DNA of 14,339 bases, from IMG/VR virus record IMGVR_UViG_2617270984_000006; one strand, given 5' to 3'. The position numbers and the translations under genes were made by a program. How positions within the stretch are numbered: position 1 is the first letter of the stretch; every line of letters begins with the position of its first letter. The stretch comes from a virus. Taxonomy: Duplodnaviria; Heunggongvirae; Uroviricota; Caudoviricetes. Below are positions 1-13,870 of the stretch, piece by piece. Below the pieces are notes generated by a model. That model did not search any database and was not told the DNA's origin. It saw only the letters and a list, made by a program, of their open reading frames with translations.

Positions 1-546
1 ATGAATATTAGTGAACTTAAAAAGTGTATACACTATGAAGTAATAGGTTATAAACGCCCTTTCTCCTGGCGAAAAGCAATTGTTCGCGCAATAAAACACA
101 GAAGATTACGTTATTTATTTTGGTGGCGCATAGCCAAATACCTTTTTGATAAAGGCGGATACTGTCGGAAGATTGCGGGAAAAATAGAACGTTTCATTCT
201 TGATAAATACAATGTAACCGTTCCCTTAACTGTAAATATTGGTAAAGGGTTTGACATATCTTATCTCAATGGCGTTGTTATCGGTCACAAAGTTACAATA
301 GGTGAAAATTGTTCAATTAAGCCTGGAGTAACTATTGGACTTCGCGGTGAATTTAATGATATGGATATTGTCATAGGAAATAATGTAACCATTGGCTGTA
401 ACGCCACCATCCTTGGTGGCAAAGTGCATATAGGGAATGATGTAAAAATAGGAGCTCATGCATTGGTACTGCATGACATTCCTGATGACTCCACATTCAT
501 TACTAAATTTCACTCTGAAATTATTTATAACTCATCTCACACATAA
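1..546 (+). CDS. Hexapeptide-repeat (left-handed beta-helix) acetyltransferase, WcaB/CysE-like; probable cargo gene
   Basis: 181-aa ORF beginning exactly at window base 1, so the true 5' end could lie upstream. Tandem [LIV]-G-x4 hexapeptide units (GVVIGHKVTIGENCSIKPGVTIG; IGNNVTIGCNATILGGKVHIGNDVKIGAHALV) preceded by a basic/aromatic N-terminal region, as in WcaB/CysE-type O-acetyltransferases. Visibly AT-rich relative to the adjacent tfa/stf genes (not computed). Confidence 0.7.
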   Translation: MNISELKKCIHYEVIGYKRPFSWRKAIVRAIKHRRLRYLFWWRIAKYLFDKGGYCRKIAGKIERFILDKYNVTVPLTVNIGKGFDISYLNGVVIGHKVTIGENCSIKPGVTIGLRGEFNDMDIVIGNNVTIGCNATILGGKVHIGNDVKIGAHALVLHDIPDDSTFITKFHSEIIYNSSHT

Positions 547-556
547 TTCCGTTTAA

Positions 557-1129
557 TCACAGCTCTGGCCATACAATATCCGGAGCTGTATTTATATCAA
601 TCCGACTCACTAATACCCGGTATTTTTTCCAGGAAGATAGCATCGATACTTCCTCATCAGTTGCCATTTCAAAATTAACAGCATCCTGCAGAATTGTTAT
701 GTTATCAGTCGCTTCCTGGATTAATCTTGCCTTTTTCTCTTCCGCCTCCCGGATCCGGAACAGTTTTTCTCCTTCTGCATCTTTCACCCAGGCTGTGCCG
801 TTCCACTTCTGAAACTCCCCATCCGGCGACAACCAAGTGACGTTTTCTGGTAATGGGCCAAGTTCAGAAATAAATAACGCGTCGCCGGAAGCCACGTCAT
901 AGACGGTTTTTCCCCGATGGTCTTCAACGAGATGCCACAATGCCTCATCACTGTTGAAAACAGCCACGAAGCCAGCCGGAATATCTGGCGGTGCAATATC
1001 GGTACTCTTTGCAGGCAGCCCTGTATGGGGTGGAATATATGCATCACCTTCACCAATAAATTCATTAGTTCCGGACAGCAGATTATAAATTTTTATGGTC
1101 CGTGATTGTTCACTCATTCTGAATGCCAT
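557..1129 (-). CDS. tfa: Tail fibre assembly protein (lambda Tfa family)
   Basis: 190-aa ORF. The N-terminal ~130 aa ([92 protein letters not shown]) closely resemble lambdoid Tfa proteins as I recall them. Its ATG overlaps the stf stop (TAATG on the minus strand), the classic stf-tfa arrangement. Confidence 0.85.
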
Positions 1130-2244
1130 TATGCAAGCCTCACAATATAGTTAAATGCGATGTTTTTGACGGTGTTTTCCGCGTTACCAGCAGCGTTAAC
1201 GGTGATGGTGTGTCCATGTGAACCAATCGCAACAAAGTGCGTATGTGCACCAATAGCGACAGTATGTGTATGCGCCCCAGCACTTGCTGCGGTACCTGAT
1301 ACTGAGTGGGTATGCGCGCCAGCAGAATTCGTTGCACCTAAGTGAGTTTGAGCAGAGTTCGACGAAGCTACTCTACCGGAGCTAACGTTAGCATTATCCC
1401 CCTGAGATATCGGATGCGTATGTGCACCTGCTGAAGCTGCTGTTCCGCTAACGCTATGGGTATGCGCACCAGTGTTATTCGTAGATTTAGTTCCATAATC
1501 AAACGATGATGTGTTTTTTGTCCCTAAATCTGTATTTGAAGCACTGGCGCTGTGGGTGTGCGATTTAATGCCGTCCTGTTCCTGAGACAATACGGCACGA
1601 CCACTGGCGGGCTTGCCCTTAATCGTCCAGCCACGCATATCAGGGATCACGCCTGACGGATAAGCGGCTGCAAGTTTCGGGTATGCAGACTTGTCAAAAG
1701 TCTGTCCCTGCATCAGAGCATAACCAGATGGAACTGTATCTGATGGCCACGGGATCGGGGCACCTACAGGAAAGGTCGAATTATTTTCCAAACCAAGATA
1801 TTTAAGGACATCAGCAACAGAGCTTTTTGCCAAAATATCTCGCCCAACCTGTGTCAGGTCAGCCAAATTAGCGGTATCTTGATTGGTAAAATACGGTAAT
1901 TTGTTTTCGGATGCTGAAAGATTAGCAAGTGCGGTAAGTATGGCATTAATTCTCTGATAGTTCTTATCTAATGCAGACGACATTTTTGCGATAAAGCCGG
2001 CCTGATCGCCATCGTCCTGTACATCCAGTCCACTTTCATTTGCTGTATATTGTGCCATTGCAGATGCAATAAAGCTGGCCTGTCGAATAACCTTATTGAC
2101 TTGCGCACTGGATGCTTTCCCTGCTGTAAATCCGGATAAAAGCGCAGGCAACGCTTCCCATTCCTCCTGCGACATAACATTGGCATTTTTACCCGTTGCG
2201 AATGCTTTAAAGTCATTTTTTGCCATCAGAGTAATACTCCCCAT
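1129..2244 (-). CDS. stf: Side tail fibre protein, distal receptor-binding portion only (lambda Stf-like); probably a 5'-truncated remnant
   Basis: 371-aa ORF. Segments ENKLPYF...[22 protein letters not shown]...[75 protein letters not shown] and the C-terminal [13 protein letters not shown] match the C-terminal region of lambda Stf from memory. Repeated G-A-H-T-H/H-G-H motifs. An in-frame stop lies 3 codons upstream of the ATG, and no shaft/anchor region is present upstream. Confidence 0.8.
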
Positions 2245-2374
2245 GCCCCTACATCAAAACCACTGATGAATTCGTTATCCATATCAAAACCAAAAAATTT
2301 TGAACCTTCCGATGGGGTTTCCACCGAAGGTGTTTCAATGCCACCCGCCCATACCCCGGCGGCTTTTACTGTGA

Positions 2375-4302: not shown

Positions 4303-4851
4303 ATGAAACTGAAGCTGAACAATGTTCGTCTGGCCTTCCCGTCTCTGTTTGAAGCTAAAACTGTAAACGGCGAAGGCGATCCGCGTTTCTCCGCAGTATT
4401 TTTAATGTCACCCAAACACCCACAACTGGAAGAAATCCGTAAAGCTATGAAGCAGGTAGCGAAGGAAAAATGGGGAGAAAAGTGGGAGCCCATTTATAGC
4501 CAGCTGGAGAAAAAACTCAATCTGTGCCTACATGATGGTGATGAAAAAGCAGAGTATGAAGGCTTTCCCGGTAATTTCTTCCTGAATGCTGCTAACAAAG
4601 CGCGCCCAGCTGTTCTTGATCGCGATCGTTCGCCACTAATTCAGGCTGATGGACGTCCCTATGCAGGGTGCTATGTAAACGCCGTTATCGATATCTGGGC
4701 ACAGGACAATAATTTCGGTAAACGCATTAATGCCTCACTCGGCGGAGTCCAGTTCCTGCGAGACGGCGATGCATTCGCTGGCGGCGGAGTGGCAAGCGCT
4801 GACGATTTTGACGATATCAGCGAAGGTGCTGATGCTGAAGCACTAATTTAA
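4303..4851 (+). CDS. DUF2815-family phage protein (putative ssDNA-binding/replication accessory)
   Basis: 182-aa ORF with RBS AAGGAAA 7 nt upstream. N-terminus MKLKLNNVRLAFPSLFE and acidic C-terminal tail (DDFDDISEGADAEALI) resemble DUF2815/phage SSB-like proteins; position between DUF2800 and PolA fits the conserved module. Confidence 0.75.
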   Translation: MKLKLNNVRLAFPSLFEAKTVNGEGDPRFSAVFLMSPKHPQLEEIRKAMKQVAKEKWGEKWEPIYSQLEKKLNLCLHDGDEKAEYEGFPGNFFLNAANKARPAVLDRDRSPLIQADGRPYAGCYVNAVIDIWAQDNNFGKRINASLGGVQFLRDGDAFAGGGVASADDFDDISEGADAEALI

Positions 4852-4861
4852 AAATATTCAT

Positions 4862-4882
4862 CCCCCAGCTACGTGCTGGGGG
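4862..4882. other. Perfect GC-rich stem-loop (8-bp stem, 5-nt loop) at the boundary of an AT-rich insertion
   Basis: cccccagc (4862-4869) / tacgt / gctggggg (4875-4882), exact reverse complements. No T-tract follows on the + strand; a weak T-rich stretch follows on the - strand. Lies between the DUF2815 stop and the first AT-rich gene. Confidence 0.5.
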
Positions 4883-4902
4883 ATCTCATGAGGGAAAGTA
4901 TA

Positions 4903-5544
4903 ATGTCACAGCCCGTATTAACTAATCACCTTAAAACTCAAATCATCAATAACGCACTTGAGAAAGCGGGTATCCCCAAACGTAAATCAGCACTACGAGC
5001 TGCTCGTGTTGAATGGGCCGAACGTGTTCGGCTTGCAGCTATCGGGGGCGTAGAGAAAGAAGCTGAAATATTAAAAAATATAAAAAAGATTGAATCCATG
5101 GTCACAAAAATCCCTGATTCATTAAAAACCAATAGTTCTTTAATTCGAAAAGATTGCTGCATATATCTCAATCTGGCTGGAGCCAGAGCAAACATTTATT
5201 TCAATGGCAACTACAGAGGTTATGAATCAGGAGCCCCCGAGCATATTAATAAAATAGCACCTGCAGAATTTACTCTACTTGGCGAAGATCCTCTGGTAAC
5301 GGAGTTTTATAGCTTTGATGCTCTCTACACACAAATTAAAAGTGATGAAACCGAAATCATACAGAACGTCAGCGCGGCTCTAAATAAAGTTCGGACAGTA
5401 AAACGATTACTGGATGTATGGCCCGAAGCTAAAGAACTGCTTCCAACAGACGCACCGCCAGTCCCTTTAGCACCAGCGGTACATCGAGAGACATTAAATG
5501 AAATGATAGGCCTTCCTACCAATACAGTGTCTGATACTCAATAA
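4903..5544 (+). CDS. Hypothetical protein (AT-rich accessory gene X); no family recognised
   Basis: Listed ORF starts at GTG 4873 inside the stem-loop; ATG 4903 (MSQPVLTNH..) has an AGGGAAAG Shine-Dalgarno-like element 7 nt upstream, and ATG 4888 is an alternative. About 213 aa from 4903. AT-rich compared with flanking replication genes (by eye). Confidence 0.55.
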   Translation: MSQPVLTNHLKTQIINNALEKAGIPKRKSALRAARVEWAERVRLAAIGGVEKEAEILKNIKKIESMVTKIPDSLKTNSSLIRKDCCIYLNLAGARANIYFNGNYRGYESGAPEHINKIAPAEFTLLGEDPLVTEFYSFDALYTQIKSDETEIIQNVSAALNKVRTVKRLLDVWPEAKELLPTDAPPVPLAPAVHRETLNEMIGLPTNTVSDTQ

Positions 5545-6227
5545 CAAGGGGGATGCTTATTATATGATTTTGAACGTTTTACAATCTCGTTAAGAGGCGT
5601 GAAATCAAAATCTCTGAATAACACATCAGGATACTTCGCTCTTGCTTTATCCAGCAGACCAGTTAAAGTATTTTTTGTGTTACCCAACATTGTATTAACC
5701 GCCACTACATGTCTAATTTCTGGAGGTTTATCTATACCACCAGAAATTGCTTCATTAAGAACCGACGCCAGTGGGGTTTGTCCCTTACTTGTTGAATCCC
5801 ACAGCGTCATTAACAGACGAACTGCGTCTATAAATAGCTTTTTGTCAGCATTTGGCTTGACAGTAATACCAGAACTACCTGAGCCAGAACCGGAACGTTC
5901 TATTGCTGCACTGGTATCCGATTTCATAGGATTAAATAACGGCAGCTCTGTACAACCGATACGCCGAATGAAATCCTTTGCAACATCTCTACCACAGAAA
6001 AAAGCCCCTGTACAATTTTCATCAGAGCGTTTTTTAAATGAAAAACAATAGTACTGATCGGTTAACGGATAACCGGAATAACTGGTTTTAGTTTGTCCAG
6101 TAATAAGTTTCAGGTGTGCAACAGGCTGAATAGTAAAATCCCGAACTATCGCATCTTTTATGTCGTTACCACGGTGACAATAATATTCAGGTAATCCATT
6201 AGGCTGTCTCTTATTACCCACAGTCAT
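5538..6227 (-). CDS. Hypothetical two-domain protein (AT-rich accessory gene Y); Cys-rich N-domain, Gly/Ser linker, helical C-domain
   Basis: 229-aa ORF with strong RBS (AAAGGAG 7 nt upstream of the ATG on the minus strand). Internal SGSGSGSSG linker; N-terminal region carries five Cys (YYCHRGN..YYCFSF..CTGAFFCGRD..RRIGC). 3' end overlaps the convergent gene X by 7 bp. Confidence 0.6.
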   Translation of the reverse strand: MTVGNKRQPNGLPEYYCHRGNDIKDAIVRDFTIQPVAHLKLITGQTKTSYSGYPLTDQYYCFSFKKRSDENCTGAFFCGRDVAKDFIRRIGCTELPLFNPMKSDTSAAIERSGSGSGSSGITVKPNADKKLFIDAVRLLMTLWDSTSKGQTPLASVLNEAISGGIDKPPEIRHVVAVNTMLGNTKNTLTGLLDKARAKYPDVLFRDFDFTPLNEIVKRSKSYNKHPPCY

Positions 6228-6288
6228 TAGTTGTCTCCTTTAATTCATGATATCTAGCATTTAACCATATACCATATGAGGATATTTT
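6228..6288. promoter_or_regulatory. AT-rich divergent intergenic region; probable promoters for gene Y (-) and the polA operon (+)
   Basis: 61-bp AT-rich spacer between divergent start codons, with RBSs on both sides (GAGGA for polA, AAAGGAG for gene Y). Candidate sigma70-like hexamers TTGTCT (6231-6236) and TAGCAT (6254-6259) with 17-bp spacing; weak match, not validated. Confidence 0.3.
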
Positions 6289-8352
6289 ATGTCCAATATA
6301 CTATGGGGCGACCTGGAAACCTATTGTGACATTCCGATCAACAACGGTACCCATGCGTATGCCGAAGGCGTTGAAGTGATGCTTTTCGCATGGGCTATCA
6401 ACGACGGGCCAGTAAACGTGTGGGATATCACTGCCGGTGGTGGTATTCCACACGGCTTATACGAAGCAATCGCAGACCCTGAAACCCTGCTTTATTTCCA
6501 TAACTCTCACTTCGACCGCACCGTTCTGCGTTATGCAATGCCGCGACTGGCACCGCCAGTCGAACGTTGGCGCGACACGATGGTGCAGGCGCTGGCGCAC
6601 GGTCTCCCGGGGTCTCTGGGGGAACTCTGCGAAGTACTAGGCGTCCCGCAAGACAAAGCGAAGGACAAAGAAGGTAAAGCGCTGATCCAGCTGTTCTGTA
6701 AGCCACGCCCGAAAAACAGCAAACTGCGTCGGGCCACCAGTAAAACCCACCCGGAAGAATGGCGGCGCTTTGTTGCTTACGCCGGACTGGATATCGAGGC
6801 AATGCGCGAAGTCTATAAACGTCTGCCGAAGTGGAATTATCAGGGGACAGAGCTGGCGCTCTGGCATCGTGATCAGCAGATCAACGACCGGGGCGTCTGC
6901 ATGGACATGCAACTCGCGCGCGCTGCGATCGAAGCGGTAGACCAGGAGCAAAAGCGCCTGGCAAAGCGTACACAGGAAATGACTGATGGCGAAGTGCAGG
7001 CAGCCACACAACGGGACGCGTTGATTAAGCACATCGTTGAATCCTACGGTGTGGAGCTACCAGACATGCAACGCAGTACCCTAGAACGTCGTATAGCCGA
7101 CCCCGATTTACCATCTGCCGTGAAAGAACTGCTGGCTATCCGCCTGCAAGCCAGTACTACCAGCACCAGTAAATACAAGGCACTAATGAAAGGCGTAAGC
7201 CACGACGGGCGCTTACGCGGTACGCTACAGTTCTGCGGGGCGTCGCGTACCGGGCGCTGGGCCGGACGGCTATTCCAGCCCCAGAACCTTCCCCGCCCTT
7301 CACTAAAACAGGAACAAATAGACGAAGGCATCGAAGCACTGAAAGCCGGATGTGCAGACCTGCTGTTTGACAATATCATGGAACTAACCAGTTCAGCGTT
7401 ACGTGGCTGCATTATCGCGCCAACAGGCAAAAAACTGGTGGTAAGTGACTTGTCGAACATTGAAGGCCGTATGCTGTCATGGCTGGCAGGAGAAGAATGG
7501 AAACTGAATGCATTCAGAGAGTACGACGCCGGAACGGGTCCGGACTTATATAAACTGGCGTATGCAAAAGCTTTTGATATTGCACCAGATGATGTTGATA
7601 AACGCATGCGTCAGATCGGTAAAGTCATGGAACTCGGTCTGGGTTATGGTGGTGGTGTGTCGGCCTTCATCACTTTTGCACTGGTTTACGGTCTCGATCT
7701 CGACGAGCTGGCAAACGCTGCACTGCCAAACATTCCCCGCGATGTTATCCGCGAGGCGAAAAGCTGGTACGGCGAATCGGTTAAACGTAAGTCAACCTAC
7801 GGCCTTTCTGAACGGGTATTTATCGCCTGCGACTCACTTAAACGTCTCTGGCGCCGGGCGCATCCCGCGACCTGTGATTTCTGGTACGAACTGGAGCGCA
7901 CCGTCCGCACTGCAATCGCCACACCGCAAAAAACATTGTATTGCGGTTATCTTAAAATCCGCCGCGATGGCGCGTGGCTACGCATACAGCTACCATCCGG
8001 ACGCGCTGTATGCTACCCGTCTCCGGTTATCGAACAAGGGAATATCACCTACATGGGTGTTAACTCTTATTCGCGTAAATGGCAACGACTCAAAACCTAC
8101 GGCGGAAAGCTGGTGGAGAACGTCACCCAGGCGGCCGCCCGCGACGTTCTGGCCGGAAACATGCCGCTTATCGAAGATGCCGGTTACAGCATTGTGCTGA
8201 CGGTACACGACGAGGTGATCACCGAAGCACCTGACACAGAAGATTTCAACGATAAAGCGCTTTCCGCGCTTCTCTCCACTAACCCCGAATGGGCGCCCGA
8301 TATCCCACTGAACGCTGGCGGTTTTGAGGCGTACCGCTACCGTAAGGATTAA
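6289..8352 (+). CDS. Family A DNA polymerase (phage type) with 3'-5' proofreading exonuclease domain
   Basis: 687-aa ORF. Exo motifs DLETY (Exo I), [10 protein letters not shown] (Exo II), YAGLDIEAM (Exo III). Polymerase motif [13 protein letters not shown], motif [17 protein letters not shown], motif C LTVHDEV. No 5'-3' exonuclease domain is evident. Confidence 0.9.
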
Positions 8353-8573: not shown

Positions 8574-8869
8574 TCGTTTACGTTGCCGGGCCGATGAGCG
8601 GTTACGAGCAATTTAACCGCCCGGCTTTTCATTCCGCAGCAAAGAAGCTAACGGACAAGGGATATGTTGTGCTTAACCCCGCAACTGTACCCAATGGTTT
8701 GACACAGGCTCAGTATATGGACATCTGCCTCACAATGCTTCGCTGTGCCGATACGATTTATATGCTCAAAGAGTGGGAGTACTCTGCCGGCGCACGTGCA
8801 GAAAACGCGTTGGCAGAGAAACTGGAATTGAATGTGCTTTTTGAAGAGTGGGATTCAGATGGCCTATGA
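8570..8869 (+). CDS. DUF4406-family protein (nucleoside 2-deoxyribosyltransferase-like fold)
   Basis: 99-aa ORF starting MIVYVAGPMSGYEQFNRP...VVLNPAT, the characteristic N-terminal signature of DUF4406/deoxyribosyltransferase-like proteins. GGTGG RBS; ATGA overlap with the upstream ORF. Confidence 0.65.
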   Translation: MIVYVAGPMSGYEQFNRPAFHSAAKKLTDKGYVVLNPATVPNGLTQAQYMDICLTMLRCADTIYMLKEWEYSAGARAENALAEKLELNVLFEEWDSDGL

Positions 8870-9128
8870 ACGTGAAAGCCTTATCGAAAAGCACCTCGTC
8901 GCTGAAGTGAAAAAAGCTGGCGGAGTGGCCTTTAAGTTTGTATCTCCCGGTCACCGCTCGGTACCGGATCGCATTGTCCTGCTACCAGGTGGTCGTATCT
9001 TTTTCGTTGAATGTAAATCACCCGGCAAGCCACCACGGCCTGACCAGTTGCGCGAACATGAACGTCTGCGAAAACTGGGCTTTACCGTAGTGGTGCTGGA
9101 TAGCAAGAACCTAGAGAGGATATTATAA
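8859..9128 (+). CDS. VRR-NUC domain nuclease
   Basis: Likely start at ATG 8859 (MAYERESLIEKH), overlapping the DUF4406 stop; the listed ORF begins at 8832. PD-(D/E)xK-type motif ...VPDRIVLLPGGRIFFVECKSPGK... typical of VRR-NUC. Confidence 0.8.
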   Translation: MAYERESLIEKHLVAEVKKAGGVAFKFVSPGHRSVPDRIVLLPGGRIFFVECKSPGKPPRPDQLREHERLRKLGFTVVVLDSKNLERIL

Positions 9129-9132
9129 AAAT

Positions 9133-9702
9133 TTAGTCAATGCCTTTTTGATTGAACTTCTGATTCTCCAGTATGCCTTGCAGCTCAATATTATCATTTG
9201 CAGCGGTTTGTTTATGCTCATGATATTTTTCTTGTGTATAATTTCTTTCTCTTAGTTTCTGTGCATAATTATTAGAAATAATATCATGACGATCTTGTAA
9301 TACTTGTTCAAGTTGACTTTTAAAGTCCTCTATCTTTTCATTAGAAATAACATTTTTGTACTTTTCAATATCACGGCGAAGTTCTTTTTCTTTCTTCTTA
9401 TTAATGCTTAATAACTGTCGATTAACGCTACCTAAGGACCATTTAAACCCAATCGACTTTATCCAATGTGCCAGAAACATAGCGCAACTGGGAAGCATTA
9501 ATAAAAGAAATGGCTTTATTGTATTTAAATCAGAACCAATATACGGAAAACGACCGTCCCACGAGGACACCAGTAATGTTAAAAAACCAGTGATGCCACC
9601 AGCAGCAACATTAGAAATCAGAGGGACTTTTTCGTAGCTATCAGGTTTAGAGGCGCTACTCAAACGTCCCTCCTTTGACTGATCTTCCAGCACGAATGGC
9701 AT
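9133..9702 (-). CDS. Predicted membrane protein with two hydrophobic helices and a long charged coiled-coil-like C-terminal region (cassette gene C)
   Basis: 189-aa ORF. Hydrophobic segments LISNVAAGGITGFLTLLVSSW and IKPFLLLMLPSCAMFLAHWI, then a K/E/R/Q-rich tail (KKKEKELRRDIEKYKNVISNEKIEDFKSQLEQVLQDRHD...). An alternative TTG start sits after AAGGAGG just downstream of the listed ATG. Very AT-rich. Its stop is 4 nt from the convergent VRR-NUC stop. Confidence 0.6.
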   Translation of the reverse strand: MPFVLEDQSKEGRLSSASKPDSYEKVPLISNVAAGGITGFLTLLVSSWDGRFPYIGSDLNTIKPFLLLMLPSCAMFLAHWIKSIGFKWSLGSVNRQLLSINKKKEKELRRDIEKYKNVISNEKIEDFKSQLEQVLQDRHDIISNNYAQKLRERNYTQEKYHEHKQTAANDNIELQGILENQKFNQKGID

Positions 9703-9904
9703 TCATTGCAATTTTGTAAAATTCATCATCAGAAGAGACATCAACGACATCGCGACGGACAACTCCTTCTGAGTCAACACATTCAAGAACAAGATGATGT
9801 TTAGGCATAAGCGCAAAGCGTAACCGGTCAAACCCCATCTTAAGAACCCAATATAGTACGGGAAGCAGGCTAAAAAAAGCCAGCCAAAAAGCAAAAGCAA
9901 TCAT
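9656..9904 (-). CDS. Small single-pass membrane protein (cassette gene B)
   Basis: 82-aa ORF. N-terminal hydrophobic helix MIAFAFWLAFFSLLPVLYWVL followed by an acidic soluble tail. Strong RBS GGGGAGGGGG immediately upstream on the minus strand. Overlaps gene C by 47 nt in a different frame. Confidence 0.5.
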   Translation of the reverse strand: MIAFAFWLAFFSLLPVLYWVLKMGFDRLRFALMPKHHLVLECVDSEGVVRRDVVDVSSDDEFYKIAMNAIRAGRSVKGGTFE

Positions 9905-9927
9905 AGCCCCCTCCCCATGTGAATCTA

Positions 9928-10806
9928 CTATAAGATGCCGTGTACTTTAACAACTATGTACGTTTTGTCCAGCGAATTCAAGTTCTCACGGACGAGCAAA
10001 TCAACGAAGTAAGCATCACTAAAAACACCAGGTTCTCTTCCCGTACTAACACGTTGTAAGAACTCAGTATCTTCTATAGACACGCTGATTGTGTCATCGC
10101 CATAGTTGACTCGCCAGCCTGTGTTTTTATCCTTATGAATAGTCAAAAATGTGATTAGAGCCTCTTCAATCACCCTTTCAGACAAGGACTGCACTACAGG
10201 AACGCGCCTATATCTGAACGGTTCAATATTATCTTCGTGCACCTTAATCAGCTCAACCCCCTGTTGAGTTGAAATTTTAAGCGATTCGTATCCTTCCTTT
10301 TGCAAAGGATTATGAATTAACTTCGATAAGGATTTGCGTATGCTTGGTGAGGCAAGTAAAGGCCGGAAATATGACGGGGCTATAATTTCCTCACCATCAT
10401 CCATAACTATTTTACAGTCTCCTTCCGCTGTTAAAGTCAACCGTTTTATTTGCCTACCATTGATCTGACGAATTAAGTCAATGAGAGTATTTCCTGCTGC
10501 GAGTGCAGCTGTACCTCCAAGCCCAATAATGCTTAATATATTCAAATGGTCAAGTGGATTTTGAATAACATCAATCAAATACTCAAATGAGCCTTCTTTA
10601 AAAGGCTCAACCTCAACATTAATACACTCACTAGTGCCATTGACAACCAAATTAACTTCTTTAAGCAAGTTGTTTAGTCCATTCAATGACTCAGTTAAAA
10701 CATCCAAATCTATTTTATGATCTGCTAGTGCGGGGCCATCATATTTAACAACTAATTTATCAGTAATATTTTCTTCTTGCTGGACATCTGTATAAGCTGA
10801 GGTCAT
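9928..10806 (-). CDS. Hypothetical soluble protein, 292 aa (cassette gene A); no family recognised
   Basis: Long AT-rich ORF antisense to the replication operon. RBS AAAGGAA about 6 nt upstream of the ATG. Gly-rich stretch IGLGGTAALAAGNTL; no catalytic motif that I can name. Confidence 0.65.
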   Translation of the reverse strand: MTSAYTDVQQEENITDKLVVKYDGPALADHKIDLDVLTESLNGLNNLLKEVNLVVNGTSECINVEVEPFKEGSFEYLIDVIQNPLDHLNILSIIGLGGTAALAAGNTLIDLIRQINGRQIKRLTLTAEGDCKIVMDDGEEIIAPSYFRPLLASPSIRKSLSKLIHNPLQKEGYESLKISTQQGVELIKVHEDNIEPFRYRRVPVVQSLSERVIEEALITFLTIHKDKNTGWRVNYGDDTISVSIEDTEFLQRVSTGREPGVFSDAYFVDLLVRENLNSLDKTYIVVKVHGIL

Positions 10807-10873
10807 AACTGTTCCTTTCGAAATAAATAATTAAGCTATTACTACATAAGTTCATTCATGGAGATACAATACC
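10807..10873. promoter_or_regulatory. AT-rich divergent intergenic region; probable promoter(s) for the antisense three-gene cassette and for the SNF2 helicase gene
   Basis: 67-bp AT-rich spacer between divergent start codons, each with its own RBS (AAAGGAA for gene A, GGAGAT for the helicase). Several weak -10/-35-like hexamers; none singled out. Confidence 0.3.
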
Positions 10874-12271
10874 ATGGACTATGCTATATTTTCACCTCAC
10901 CCCTACCAAGATCTCATCATCAATCATCAAATCGACATTATGCGCTGCAACATCTGGGCAGGCATGGGAATGGGTAAAACCATGGCAACGCTCATTGCGC
11001 TGGAAGATCTTTTTATGGCAGGGGCAGAAACACGCCCCGCACTGGTCCTCGCGCCGCTACGTGTTGCAGCAAACACCTGGCCGGATGAAGCAGTGAAGTG
11101 GGGGCATTTGCGCAATATCGAGGTGCAGCCGATTGTTGGTAATGCCAAAGCGCGCTCTACGGCGCTGGCGAACAGCAACGCAAGCGTGTTCACCATCAAC
11201 TACGATAACCTTGTCTGGCTGGTTGAAGAATTGGGAGAACGATGGCCGTTCGGTATTGTCATTCCAGATGAAAGCACCCGGCTAAAATCCTTCCGGCTGC
11301 GAGGTGGTGGTAAGCGCGCGGCGGCGCTGGGCAAAGTGGCGCATAAGTATGTCCGGCGCTGGATAAATCTCACCGGTACGCCAGCACCGAACGGCCTGGT
11401 AGATTTGTGGGGACAATCGTGGTTTGTGGACCAAGGGCAACGTCTCGGGCGCACTTACGGCGCGTTTACCTCACGCTGGTTCAACTCGATACAGTTTCCG
11501 GGACAGAGCTGGACTAAACTGGAGCCTTTTGCTCACTCACAGGGTGAAATACAGCGAGCATTAGCCGATGTGACCCTCTCGCTGGATGCGGCCGACTGGT
11601 TCGATATCAAAGACCCCATCCATAACGTAATCCGCGTGGATATGCCGCCGAAGGCCCGTCAGCAGTATCGTGAAATGGAAAAGGAAATGTTCCTCGAGCT
11701 GAATGGCGAAGGTATCGAAGCACCGAACGCCGCGGCAAAGACACTGAAGTGTCTTCAAATCGCCAGTGGCGCAGTATACACAGACGACACCGGAAGTTGG
11801 TCAGAACTGCATGACACCAAACTACAGGCGCTGGACAGCATACTGACCGAAGCAGCTGGCGCACCTGTGCTGGTTGCTTATCACTGGAAACACGATCTTG
11901 AACGCTTGCTTAAAGCATTCCCTCGCGGTCGTCACCTCGACCAGGATCCACAGACACTGCGCGACTGGAATTCCGGAAAGATTCCTGTTCTCTTTGCACA
12001 CCCAGCCAGCGCGGGCCACGGCCTGAACATGCAGGACGGCGGGAATATACTGGTATTTTTCTCACACTGGTGGGACCTGGAGCAATATCAGCAAATTATT
12101 GAACGTATCGGCCCCACCAGGCAGATACAGGCCGGACACAATCGTCCGGTATTTATTCACCACATTATTGCTGCCGACACTATGGACGAAATGGTGATGG
12201 AGCGGCGCAACTCAAAACGAACAGTGCAGGACATCCTGCTCGATGCCATGAAAAAGAGAGGTATAGCATGA
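10874..12271 (+). CDS. SNF2-family (DEAD/DEAH-box-like) helicase
   Basis: 465-aa ORF. Walker A AGMGMGKT, DExx box IPDESTRLK, C-terminal helicase motif HPASAGHGLNMQ. Final gene of the replication module. Confidence 0.9.
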   Translation: MDYAIFSPHPYQDLIINHQIDIMRCNIWAGMGMGKTMATLIALEDLFMAGAETRPALVLAPLRVAANTWPDEAVKWGHLRNIEVQPIVGNAKARSTALANSNASVFTINYDNLVWLVEELGERWPFGIVIPDESTRLKSFRLRGGGKRAAALGKVAHKYVRRWINLTGTPAPNGLVDLWGQSWFVDQGQRLGRTYGAFTSRWFNSIQFPGQSWTKLEPFAHSQGEIQRALADVTLSLDAADWFDIKDPIHNVIRVDMPPKARQQYREMEKEMFLELNGEGIEAPNAAAKTLKCLQIASGAVYTDDTGSWSELHDTKLQALDSILTEAAGAPVLVAYHWKHDLERLLKAFPRGRHLDQDPQTLRDWNSGKIPVLFAHPASAGHGLNMQDGGNILVFFSHWWDLEQYQQIIERIGPTRQIQAGHNRPVFIHHIIAADTMDEMVMERRNSKRTVQDILLDAMKKRGIA

Positions 12272-12468
12272 GCGAGAAACCCGACGATTTACTCACCCCG
12301 GATGAAGTATGCCAAAAGTTAGGTATTACACAGAAAACGCTATGTGAGTGGAATATTAAGCATCGTCATCGGGCTATCCTGGCACCAATTCGTTTCAGTG
12401 CAAAAGTAGTTCGTTATGAGCGCCGCAATGTAGACGCTTTTATTCAAAAGTGTCGCAGCCGGTATTAA
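12268..12468 (+). CDS. AlpA/excisionase-like helix-turn-helix DNA-binding protein
   Basis: 66-aa ORF; LLTPDEVCQKLGITQKTLCEW...PIRFSAKVVRYERRNVDAFI fits the AlpA/Xis-type HTH pattern. ATGA overlap with the helicase stop. Located next to the integrase, as excisionase/regulator genes usually are. Confidence 0.7.
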   Translation: MSEKPDDLLTPDEVCQKLGITQKTLCEWNIKHRHRAILAPIRFSAKVVRYERRNVDAFIQKCRSRY

Positions 12469-13870
12469 CCTCGCCGTCGTAGCAATGCCACCTGCGCAAG
12501 TATGCTCCGCTCGTGAGCTTCGAAAGCTTCGCGCTTCAACGCAATCTCTTCCTGTAAAATCTCATCAGAAAAGTCGTAATGTTCTGCCATCGGGTCATCT
12601 GACTTGCTGGAGTGATGAAGGCAAAGGAGGCTGATTTCCCTTCGGTCTGAGCGGGAATAGCCTCTTTCCTTCATCAAGGCAATAACATTGCTCTTAAGGA
12701 ATTTACGGCACATAGTATTAAATGCACCGTCTTTCCCTTTAACAGTCCCATCATGTTTTATTCCTTTTACAGCCCCGTCCGGGCTGTATGTTTTCACTAG
12801 CTTATCCAGTGATCGTTTTGAAAATGGCTGCATTGGATCACGTGGCTGCAAAAATACATAATCCCTATTGCACTCAGGAACTGAATCACGCCAGGCTTTC
12901 TGCTCGTCGATAATCCGCCGGATCTCAGGCGTTATCGGCAGGGGGGAAAGCCTTTTTGTTTTTTCATAGCCCCTCGCATGCCGATAACCCCTTCCGGATA
13001 AACAATTTCACCAGCCTCCTCGTGAACGTAGTCCCAGCGCAGGTTATGGACATTAATCGGACGAACGCCAGTGATGATCATGAAGCGAACAGCATTCTTC
13101 TGGTGTACAGAGGCGCAGGCAGCAACATTGAGCCAGAGTCGGGCGATTGATTCAATATCGGTAAAAAGCCGTGTGGGGGTAGGTTTCTGTACGCGGGAGG
13201 AAACATAATCATCTGGCAGACTGGCGGCAACATTGCGGCCGTTGCAAAGAGTAGGTGCGCAGAACTTCCAGAACCGACGGAGCTCGGCAAACAACTCCAG
13301 GGCGTTATTGTTCGAGCGAGTGGCGATCCACTCGTCCAGCACTTCCACCAGCCGATTGTATGTTACGTCGCTGAACACCTCGCGCTCGCCGAACGTTGCT
13401 TTAATCCGGTCTATACGCACCCCGTAGGTTGTGAAACTGTCCGGGCTCAGCTTCTGCCGTGCGACTTTGGCTTTGAGGTCATCCCGGTACATTTCCAGCG
13501 CTGCATGTACGGACTCTGCCCGCAGGCCACCGTCAGCCATACCTAGCGCTTTTTCGCGCGCCAGCTGGATAGCGAGCTCCGGCCACTCGCCGAGCTTTTT
13601 ACCTTTGAGGCCCATCTTTTTTGGAAACTCGGCGTAAAATGTAACCTTACCGGCTTTGCTGAAATCGATACGGAGATAGTTCTCTTTTTCGTATTTGGAA
13701 CGGCGAGCCACACCGGAAGCAGCGAGGATGATTTTGGCGGCAGCAACACAGATTTTCATGTGTGCGCTGGTATAGGGGGGTTTACAGGCGTCCCATTTTT
13801 CAGATGCGGCTAAAACATCGTCATTATTGGGGCTATCCGGATTATGTGTTACAGTGCGCGGCATTCTCAA
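12465..13870 (-). pseudogene. int: Tyrosine-type phage integrase interrupted by a 1-nt frameshift in a homopolymer (or sequencing error)
   Basis: Two ORFs in different frames, 12932..13870 and 12465..12851. The upstream ORF carries box I (ITGVRPINVHNLRWDYV). The downstream frame, read back to 13007, gives EKTKRLSPLPITPEIRRIIDEQ...YVFLQP... and the C-terminal LHHSSKSDDPMAEHYDF (His and catalytic Tyr). The frames can only switch within the T6 run at 12959-12964; one extra T would give a continuous product of roughly 465 aa. Confidence 0.75.

What the first reader, a model, noticed from the sequence alone, without database searches (positions are those of the whole stretch)
9129..10873. Antisense AT-rich three-gene operon (soluble 292-aa protein plus two membrane proteins) inserted between VRR-NUC and the SNF2 helicase: candidate undescribed defence or exclusion system
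Three consecutive minus-strand ORFs interrupt the + strand replication operon and are much more AT-rich than their neighbours. Each has a good RBS (AAAGGAA; GGGGAGGGGG; an internal AAGGAGG), and B and C overlap, so they form one transcription unit driven from the divergent region 10807-10873. Gene A is soluble with no recognisable catalytic motif. Gene B is a single-pass membrane protein with an acidic tail. Gene C has two transmembrane helices and a long charged coiled-coil-like region. A sensor-like soluble protein paired with small membrane effectors, antisense to the lytic genes, is the layout of many prophage-encoded abortive-infection or superinfection-exclusion modules. I cannot match it to a named system; Kiwa- or RexAB-like layouts differ in gene number and order.
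Basis: partly seen in the sequence, partly recalled or inferred. Interest (0 to 1): 0.8.

Follow-up and report, generated by a model that had tools for sequence, protein, structure and literature searches.

The report
Prophage gp29-family defence cassette, three genes
Three small genes carried backwards inside an E. coli prophage are a mobile cargo cassette; its main protein is related to a mycobacteriophage anti-phage defence protein, but it is paired with two new membrane proteins, so it is a good untested defence candidate rather than a wholly unknown system.

Summary
Window 9129-10873 carries three real minus-strand genes: A 9928-10806 (292 aa), B 9656-9904 (82 aa) and C 9133-9663 (176 aa, TTG start). 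GC is 38% against about 50-54% in the flanks. dN/dS against the Salmonella copies is 0.07-0.12.

The segment occupies a cargo hotspot between the VRR-NUC and SNF2 genes of an E. coli prophage. Only 17 of 158 related prophages carry it. Others hold BstA, DUF6338 or Arc/Rha genes in the same slot.

The A-B-C triad is conserved and moves as a unit through unrelated elements: lambdoid prophages, a myovirus tail cluster, a PM2-like Vibrio phage and an Aeromonas restriction-modification island.

It is not unmatched to any named system. A is a full-length homologue of mycobacteriophage MichelleMyBell gp29, part of the validated abortive-infection gp29/gp30 system (BLASTP 4e-11; hhalign 97%). A also matches PADLOC's untested candidate PDC-S42 (4.7e-40). 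B and C show no homology to gp30.

The most likely function is a prophage-encoded abortive-infection defence, with a gp29-like core and two inner-membrane partners. Verdict: a new variant of a known kind, with unknown mechanism and no experimental test. Interest is moderate.

The parts
9928..10806 (-). Gene A, 292 aa. It is the gp29-like core protein (PADLOC PDC-S42, NCBIfam NF053583 'LAPAL', weak Pfam DUF7946). The model shows an N-terminal alpha/beta domain, a conserved Gly-rich hydrophobic segment (aa ~85-112), a middle alpha/beta domain and a C-terminal OB-like barrel (aa ~205-292).
9656..9904 (-). Gene B, 82 aa. It has an N-terminal transmembrane helix (aa ~1-22) followed by a small conserved domain, probably cytoplasmic (VDV..D.EFY..AM.AIR.G).
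   Evidence: Hydropathy KD19 up to 2.06. phrog_15510 at 2.4e-55. Conserved at 38-63% identity in Aeromonas and Klebsiella. dN/dS 0.12. No PADLOC, Pfam or NCBIfam hit.
9133..9663 (-). Gene C, 176 aa from TTG 9663. It has two hydrophobic helices (aa ~14-37 and ~50-72), then long charged helices (to aa ~172), probably cytoplasmic. It overlaps the end of B by 8 nt, which suggests translational coupling.
   Evidence: Start site. Hydropathy. AlphaFold2 helices 16-37, 50-103, 108-152 and 159-172. Homologues were found only in Enterobacterales in the word-indexed search; weaker C-like partners sit next to A in Aeromonas, Vibrio and Photobacterium. dN/dS 0.07.
9905..9927 (-). A-B spacer of 23 nt, carrying the GGGGAGGGGG ribosome-binding site of B.
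   Evidence: A spacer of similar length (23-28 nt) is kept in Klebsiella, Vibrio, Pantoea and Photobacterium.
10807..10897 (-). AT-rich upstream region of A (GC 0.28 in 10807-10873) and the right-hand end of the swapped cargo segment. It overlaps the first ~8 codons of the helicase gene on the + strand. A promoter is presumed here but was not identified.
   Evidence: Right breakpoint from alignment with two alternative alleles. No consensus promoter. No conserved upstream motif among cassette copies.
8832..9128 (+). Left flank: VRR-NUC / PD-(D/E)XK nuclease gene of the prophage backbone. The cargo segment begins immediately after its stop codon.
10874..12271 (+). Right flank: SNF2/DEAD-box helicase gene of the prophage backbone.

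Best explanation
The segment is a horizontally mobile three-gene cargo cassette (a moron). It sits in a cargo hotspot of a temperate E. coli phage and most likely acts as an abortive-infection-type anti-phage defence expressed from the prophage.

Its core is protein A, a member of the large gp29 / PDC-S42 family. A is a roughly 300-aa multi-domain protein without recognisable catalytic residues. It has a conserved Gly-rich hydrophobic segment and an acidic C-terminal OB-like barrel.

In this gamma-proteobacterial branch A is always followed by two small inner-membrane proteins. B is single-pass with a small cytoplasmic domain. C is a two-helix hairpin with a long cytoplasmic helical region. 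Their genes overlap, so they are probably made together and act as a pair.

Inferred mechanism, not shown: in the uninfected lysogen A is held inactive at the membrane by B and C, as gp30 is thought to do for the toxic gp29. During infection by another phage, a phage product is recognised, most likely a protein bound by the OB-like domain. A together with B and C then damages membrane function, so the infected cell stops supporting phage growth.

Shown here: gene reality, purifying selection, mobility as a unit, hotspot location beside known defence genes, and homology of A to gp29 and PDC-S42. Inferred: defence activity, the trigger, the roles of A, B and C, and the membrane target.
For: 1. 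Homology of A to MichelleMyBell gp29 across the full length. gp29 itself hits the same PADLOC model, PDLC05015, at 1.6e-16.
2. The MichelleMyBell prophage cuts Tweety plating by 4-5 logs (PMC8549241). Its system is described as typical abortive infection (PMC6426606) and as made of toxic gp29 plus putative membrane protein gp30 (PMC11856565).
3. A hits PADLOC PDC-S42 at 4.7e-40. That family was nominated because members sit embedded in BREX, DISARM or type I restriction-modification loci (10.1101/2024.01.29.577857). The Aeromonas copy here lies next to HsdM, Fic, HsdR and Mrr_N genes.
4. Hotspot: among 158 E. coli genomes with this prophage backbone only 17 carry A-B-C. The same slot, also on the antisense strand, holds BstA (PADLOC 1e-115 and 2.5e-110), DUF6338 plus a small ORF, or a 236-aa unknown. 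On the + strand it holds Dcm or Arc/Rha/Ant genes.
5. The triad moves intact among unrelated elements. It lies next to the integrase of lambdoid prophages, inside a myovirus tail/baseplate cluster in Pantoea, next to the integrase of a PM2-like Vibrio phage, and in the same slot of a Salmonella prophage with a different integrase.
6. Strong purifying selection acts on all three genes. The B-C overlap is conserved.
7. Foreign composition.
Against: - No experiment exists for this cassette or for any proteobacterial member in the literature searched.
- PDC-S42 is explicitly an untested candidate.
- B and C have no detectable homology to gp30 (hhalign probability below 1%), so the analogy to gp29/gp30 rests on A alone.
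- Many A-family members stand alone without a membrane partner. The membrane link may therefore be a lineage-specific add-on and not the core mechanism.
- No promoter was identified, so expression in the lysogen is assumed.
- The primary MichelleMyBell paper (Dedrick 2017) could not be read. Its findings are taken from secondary sources.
- The AlphaFold2 model is of moderate confidence (pLDDT 76, pTM 0.57), and no solved structure matches the whole fold.
Confidence: 0.6

Rival explanations
1. Superinfection exclusion at the membrane. B and C, as inner-membrane proteins, block DNA entry of incoming phages (as P22 SieA, T4 Imm and mycobacteriophage Charlie gp32 do), with A as an accessory or regulator.
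For: Two of the three products are small inner-membrane proteins. The cassette sits at moron positions next to integrases.
Against: The conserved and widespread component is the non-membrane protein A (4430 clusters), often without any membrane partner. The only characterised relative is described as abortive infection, in which adsorption and DNA injection proceed (PMC6426606).
Confidence: 0.12
2. Addiction (toxin-antitoxin-like) module that mainly stabilises the carrier element. A is the toxin and B/C neutralise it, with no primary anti-phage role.
For: gp29 is reported as toxic without gp30 (PMC11856565). Other family members have toxin-antitoxin neighbours (HicAB, RelB/ParE). The gene organisation is tight and overlapping.
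Against: The location is a cargo hotspot that swaps with BstA and similar genes. The MichelleMyBell homologue gives a 4-5 log defence phenotype (PMC8549241). The two roles are not exclusive.
Confidence: 0.1
3. A phage structural or lysis function, as the NCBIfam name 'putative phage structural protein' suggests, or B/C acting as holin-like lysis proteins.
For: NCBIfam NF053583 hit at 194 bits. The Pantoea copy lies inside a tail/baseplate gene cluster.
Against: The same triad occurs in phages of unrelated architecture (Caudoviricetes and a PM2-like Vinavirales phage), next to integrases, and in a non-phage restriction-modification island. It is absent from 141 of 158 otherwise similar prophages. 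It lies antisense within the replication module and away from any lysis cassette. No PHROG structural or lysis annotation was found.
Confidence: 0.03
4. A counter-defence or host-takeover cassette used by the carrier phage during its own lytic cycle, for example to inhibit a host defence or alter the envelope.
For: Phage accessory slots also hold anti-defence genes. The function of the family is biochemically unknown.
Against: Family members occur in chromosomal restriction-modification and defence neighbourhoods outside phages. One lies directly downstream of a CI-like repressor in the same orientation, a lysogeny-expressed position. The characterised homologue is a defence gene.
Confidence: 0.07

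Closest known systems
MichelleMyBell gp29/gp30 prophage defence (DefenseFinder 'MMB_gp29_gp30'; Dedrick et al. 2017, read only through secondary sources)
   Same: Gene A is homologous to gp29 along its full length. Both are carried by temperate phages at an accessory position. In both, the gp29-like gene is followed immediately by a gene for a small membrane protein that overlaps or abuts it (gp30: 67 aa with 2 transmembrane helices).
   Different: There are two downstream membrane proteins here instead of one, and neither is detectably related to gp30. The host phylum is Proteobacteria, whereas DefenseFinder finds gp29-gp30 only in Actinobacteria (10.1101/2023.03.30.534874). A and gp29 share only 26% identity. 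This version has not been tested experimentally.
PADLOC phage defence candidate PDC-S42
   Same: A matches model PDLC05015 at 4.7e-40 over aa 17-288. gp29 hits the same model. Like the founding members, one copy lies beside a type I restriction-modification system.
   Different: PDC-S42 is defined as a single-gene candidate and is untested. Here the gene is part of a conserved three-gene unit, and B and C have no PADLOC model.
Lambda RexAB / mycobacteriophage Sbash gp30-gp31
   Same: The layout is similar: a prophage-expressed cytoplasmic protein plus membrane protein(s), proposed to abort infection by membrane depolarisation (PMC6426596).
   Different: A has no DUF4747 (RexA) domain. RexB and gp31 have four transmembrane helices, whereas B has one and C has two. 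There is no sequence relationship. The resemblance is in layout only.
BstA
   Same: It occupies the very same slot and strand in sister prophages. It is a prophage-encoded abortive-infection protein of about 300 aa.
   Different: It is an unrelated sequence family (A does not hit the BstA model), a single gene, and has no membrane partners.

Membership tests
MMB_gp29_gp30 (MichelleMyBell gp29/gp30 defence system) | A gp29 homologue is present | tested here: met
   BLASTP 4e-11 with 26% identity, A aa 9-288 against gp29 aa 3-290. hhalign probability 97.4%, E 9.4e-12, 275 aligned columns.
MMB_gp29_gp30 (MichelleMyBell gp29/gp30 defence system) | A gp30 homologue is encoded next to gp29 | tested here: not met
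   hhalign of the C profile and the B profile against gp30 gives probability 0.2% and 0.4%. Only an analogy holds: small membrane proteins sit directly downstream.
MMB_gp29_gp30 (MichelleMyBell gp29/gp30 defence system) | Expressed from the prophage and protects the lysogen against heterologous phage by abortive infection | not testable with these tools
   Needs RNA-seq of a lysogen and plaque or one-step assays. No consensus promoter was found upstream.
PADLOC PDC-S42 | Match to a PDC-S42 profile HMM | tested here: met
   PDLC05015 at 4.7e-40, 135.9 bits, aa 17-288 on profile positions 5-286 of 302.
PADLOC PDC-S42 | A single-gene system | tested here: not met
   In this branch A is always followed by B and C, in at least 7 genomic contexts. 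More distant members are solitary.
NCBIfam NF053583 'LAPAL motif-containing putative phage structural protein' | Score above the curated cut-off | tested here: met
   194.2 bits against a cut-off of 60.
NCBIfam NF053583 'LAPAL motif-containing putative phage structural protein' | A structural (virion) role, as the name implies | tested here: inconclusive
   Genomic context argues against it. The cassette lies next to integrases, in a restriction-modification island, antisense in a replication module, and in phages of unrelated morphology. Only the Pantoea copy lies in a tail cluster. No virion proteomics is available.
Pfam DUF7946 | Score above the gathering threshold | tested here: not met
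   22.3 bits against 27, covering only aa 19-81. 8 of 28 diverse family members hit it weakly. The family is related to this model but poorly captured by it.
RexAB-like (lambda RexA/RexB, Sbash gp30/gp31) | A RexA-type DUF4747 protein plus a four-helix membrane protein | tested here: not met
   No DUF4747 hit for A. B has 1 hydrophobic helix and C has 2.
Kiwa (KwaA/KwaB) | KwaA membrane protein plus a DUF4868 KwaB | tested here: not met
   No PADLOC or Pfam hit to Kiwa components for A, B or C.

The most novel reading that the evidence does not exclude
A-B-C is a distinct, previously uncharacterised membrane-acting abortive-infection system. The gp29-like protein senses a phage protein through its acidic OB-like domain. 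It then inserts its conserved Gly-rich hydrophobic hairpin into the inner membrane, or gates a B-C complex there, and collapses membrane function. This would give the first mechanism for a superfamily of more than 4000 protein clusters that spans Actinobacteria and Proteobacteria and is currently split between two database names.
Probability: 0.3. Interest if true: 0.65.

Novelty: new variant of a known kind. Interest (0 to 1): 0.5.

Why it matters
The gp29/gp30 defence has been regarded as confined to Actinobacteria, and its mechanism is unknown. This work links it to PADLOC's untested candidate PDC-S42 and shows that the family is very large: 4430 clusters at 50% identity. It also identifies a conserved three-gene form in E. 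coli, Salmonella and Klebsiella, where genetics and phage panels are easy to use. That makes an open question directly testable: how this non-enzymatic-looking protein family stops phages. The work also documents a prophage cargo hotspot (VRR-NUC | SNF2) that exchanges BstA and other cargo, and that holds further unannotated antisense genes worth screening.

Tried and rejected
- Literature searches for PDC-S42, DUF7946, the RefSeq accessions of A, B and C, and MMB_gp29_gp30 found no study of this cassette.
- The primary MichelleMyBell paper was not available by PMC id or DOI.
- Sequence search of the A profile against PDB chains gave nothing meaningful.
- Foldseek against PDB gave no hit below E 1e-3.
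- BFVD gave only uncharacterised phage proteins.
- The afdb50 library was unavailable.
- The genome-contig scan returned only two loci.
- An ssDNA-binding role for the OB-like domain was considered and is disfavoured. The domain is acidic in most members, with a median net charge of -3.
- Homology of B or C to gp30 is rejected.
- A conserved promoter travelling with the cassette was not found.
- The 231-aa gene downstream of the distant homologue P0035 is a Pro-rich protein unrelated to C.
- The + strand ORF 9356-9637 inside gene C was treated as spurious, because it lies antisense to a gene under strong purifying selection.
- Transmembrane calls rest on Kyte-Doolittle windows and AlphaFold2 helices only. 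No dedicated topology predictor was available.
Full report
**1. Observation**

- A, 9928-10806, 292 aa.
- B, 9656-9904, 82 aa.
- C, ending at 9133.

C most likely starts at TTG 9663 (176 aa), five bases after AAGGAGG. PGAP annotates identical DNA that way, and phrog_15878 matches residues 14-189 of the longer ORF end to end. B and C therefore overlap by 8 nt.

GC is 0.378 across 9129-10873, against 0.495 for the VRR-NUC gene and 0.537 for the SNF2 gene.

The genes are real. The same three proteins occur in the same order in Salmonella, Klebsiella, Pantoea, Aeromonas, Vibrio and Photobacterium. Against the Salmonella copies dN/dS is 0.07, 0.12 and 0.07.

Hydropathy and an AlphaFold2 model support the topology. 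B has one N-terminal membrane helix. C has two hydrophobic helices followed by long charged helices.

Two details were not confirmed. No consensus promoter lies in 10807-10873 on the minus strand. A is also not plainly soluble: a Gly/Ala-rich hydrophobic stretch at residues ~85-112 is the most hydrophobic part of almost every family member.

**2. Context**

The window is an E. coli prophage integrated next to yfhL. Its replication module reads DUF2800, DUF2815, DNA polymerase A, ANR, DUF4406, VRR-NUC, SNF2 helicase, HTH, integrase.

Of 5426 complete E. coli genomes, 158 carry this stretch of backbone, but only 17 carry the three genes. Two more genomes have a 70%-identical copy in a different prophage.

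Alignment with two alternative alleles places the left breakpoint at the stop codon of VRR-NUC (9128). The right breakpoint lies about eight codons into the helicase gene, near 10897.

In sister prophages the same slot holds other cargo:
- BstA on the same antisense strand. PADLOC scores are 1e-115 and 2.5e-110, and one copy is mislabelled 'PI-PLC domain' by PGAP.
- A DUF6338 protein plus a small ORF.
- A 236-aa unknown protein.
- Dcm methyltransferase.
- Arc/Arc/Rha, with or without Ant.

These are documented. The slot is therefore a cargo-exchange hotspot.

**3. The cassette moves as a unit**

A-B-C occurs in these contexts:
- Next to the integrase of lambdoid prophages at a tRNA-Arg site in E. 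coli; a near-identical prophage arrangement occurs in Klebsiella.
- In the equivalent slot of a Salmonella prophage with a different integrase.
- Inside a myovirus tail/baseplate cluster in Pantoea.
- Next to the integrase of a 14-kb PM2-like (Vinavirales) Vibrio phage.
- Beside HsdM, Fic, HsdR and Mrr_N genes in Aeromonas.
- On a Photobacterium contig.

The A-B spacer is short in every copy examined, and the B-C overlap (4-20 nt) is kept. C homologues were found only alongside this branch of A.

**4. What A is**

A hits several family models:
- PADLOC PDC-S42 model PDLC05015 at 4.7e-40.
- NCBIfam NF053583, 'LAPAL motif-containing putative phage structural protein', at 194 bits.
- phrog_3243, function unknown.
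- Pfam DUF7946, below threshold.

PDC-S42 is one of 145 untested candidates. They were nominated because members are embedded in BREX, DISARM or type I restriction-modification loci (10.1101/2024.01.29.577857).

A depositor's note on the Vibrio phage homologue read 'MMB_gp29_gp30__gp29'. I fetched mycobacteriophage MichelleMyBell (KF986246) and compared directly. A and gp29 align over their whole lengths: BLASTP gives 4e-11 with 26% identity, and hhalign gives probability 97.4% with E 9.4e-12. gp29 itself hits PDLC05015 at 1.6e-16. The same family is therefore listed under two names in two defence databases.

The literature available here says the following about the MichelleMyBell system:
- The prophage reduces plating of phage Tweety by four to five orders of magnitude. 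Tweety gp54 repeat variants escape (PMC8549241).
- The system is 'typical of abortive infection', with adsorption and injection proceeding (PMC6426606).
- It consists of toxic gp29 and putative membrane protein gp30, with unknown mechanism (PMC11856565).
- DefenseFinder detects gp29-gp30 only in Actinobacteria.

The primary paper could not be read.

**5. What B and C are**

gp30 is 67 aa with two membrane helices, and its gene overlaps the end of gp29. Neither B nor C is detectably related to it. Neither has any Pfam, NCBIfam or PADLOC match.

The resemblance is one of layout only: a gp29-like gene followed at once by small membrane protein gene(s).

**6. The wider family**

A profile search of 1.84 billion representative proteins found 4430 clusters at E ≤ 1e-3 and 2860 at E ≤ 1e-10. 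The 150 best hits listed are full-length matches of 275-354 aa.

More distant members examined are solitary:
- Downstream of a CI-like repressor and beside HicAB in a Marichromatium prophage.
- Near a type ISP restriction enzyme and methyltransferase genes in Thioalkalivibrio.
- Among methyltransferase genes in a Paracoccaceae genome.

No small membrane ORF lies downstream in these cases. A is thus the conserved core, and the membrane partners look lineage-specific.

**7. Structure**

The AlphaFold2 model of A (pLDDT 76, pTM 0.57) shows four parts:
- An N-terminal strand, long helix and hairpin unit.
- The hydrophobic helices, modelled with lower confidence.
- A middle alpha/beta domain.
- A C-terminal five-stranded barrel with the OB order of elements.

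The OB-like domain is acidic in most members, so a protein or small-ligand partner is more likely than nucleic acid.

The invariant residues are G72, W231 and F249. Nearly invariant are D23, G24, R157, P167 and D246. These do not resemble a catalytic set.

**8. Most likely function**

The best-supported reading (confidence about 0.6) is a prophage-encoded abortive-infection-type defence cassette. It has a gp29-family core and two dedicated inner-membrane partners that are probably made together.

The steps are inferred and not shown: A is restrained at the membrane by B and C; a phage product is sensed through the OB-like domain; membrane function is then lost.

The rivals are:
- Membrane-level superinfection exclusion (0.12).
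- A mainly addictive toxin-antitoxin-like role (0.10).
- A counter-defence or host-takeover role (0.07).
- A structural or lysis role, as the NCBIfam name implies (0.03).

The structural reading is contradicted by the cassette's presence in phages of unrelated architecture, beside integrases, and in a non-phage island.

**9. Comparison and novelty**

The cassette works like, and is partly homologous to, MichelleMyBell gp29/gp30. It fails that system's second defining feature, a gp30 homologue, so it should not be filed as a member. It meets the HMM criterion of PDC-S42 but is not a single-gene system.

I rate it a new variant of a known kind. It is a proteobacterial three-gene form of the gp29 family, it is untested, and its mechanism is unknown.

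Interest is moderate (0.5). Defence cargo in prophage hotspots is expected, and PADLOC already flags gene A. On the other hand, the link between two database entries, the size of the family and the availability of an E. coli version make its mechanism directly approachable.

Noticed in passing
window 5538-6227 (-): A second antisense, AT-rich (GC 0.39) gene of 229 aa lies between the Nmad5 gene (4873-5544) and DNA polymerase A. It has no Pfam or PADLOC hit. Similarity between the window and relative L001 breaks across 4851-6289, so this looks like a second variable cargo slot holding an uncharacterised candidate.
   Followed up: partly
window 12465-13870 (-): The tyrosine integrase is split in the window into ORFs 12932-13870 and 12465-12851. 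Frame 1 runs into stop codons after about 312 codons. It is an intact 465-aa gene in relatives L001 and L026, and blastn shows 2 gap positions in this stretch. The cause is either a frameshifted pseudogene in a decaying prophage or a sequencing error.
   Followed up: partly
window 1-2374: The left end is not colinear with related prophages. A hexapeptide-repeat acetyltransferase (1-546, GC 0.36), a tail-fibre assembly protein (557-1129, -) and a tail fibre with a collar domain (1129-2244, -) replace the VapE / HTH / LexA-like repressor region seen in relatives. This suggests a rearranged or chimeric prophage.
   Followed up: partly
L025 2142-3071 (E. coli O103:H2 strain 129): The gene that PGAP annotates as 'PI-PLC domain-containing protein' in the same slot is BstA according to PADLOC (2.5e-110). 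This is a probable misannotation.
   Followed up: yes
L024 407-1168 (E. coli 23CRST009): A TIR-domain gene sits in another slot of the same prophage family, between DNA polymerase A and the ANR regulator gene. The backbone therefore has several cargo positions.
   Followed up: no
L016 6383-7315 (MichelleMyBell gene 29) and PADLOC PDLC05015: MichelleMyBell gp29 hits PADLOC's PDC-S42 model at 1.6e-16. The DefenseFinder system MMB_gp29_gp30 and the PADLOC 'untested candidate' PDC-S42 therefore describe the same protein family under two names.
   Followed up: yes
L003 2335-3045 (-) and L024 1727-2490 (-): Other antisense alleles occupy the VRR-NUC | SNF2 slot: a 236-aa protein with no Pfam or PADLOC hit, and a DUF6338 protein followed by a 47-aa ORF. 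These are further uncharacterised candidates in a slot that also hosts BstA.
   Followed up: partly
L015 8100-8381 (E. coli O157:H16): In this lambdoid-prophage copy of the cassette the third gene is annotated as only 93 aa, and IS66 and IS3 elements lie nearby. Gene C may be truncated there.
   Followed up: no
window 4873-5544 (+), and L027 6941-7717: The replication module carries an Nmad5 'nucleotide modification associated' gene (1.7e-54). The Salmonella relative has a weak PAPS_reduct-like gene in the module. This hints that these phages may modify their DNA.
   Followed up: no
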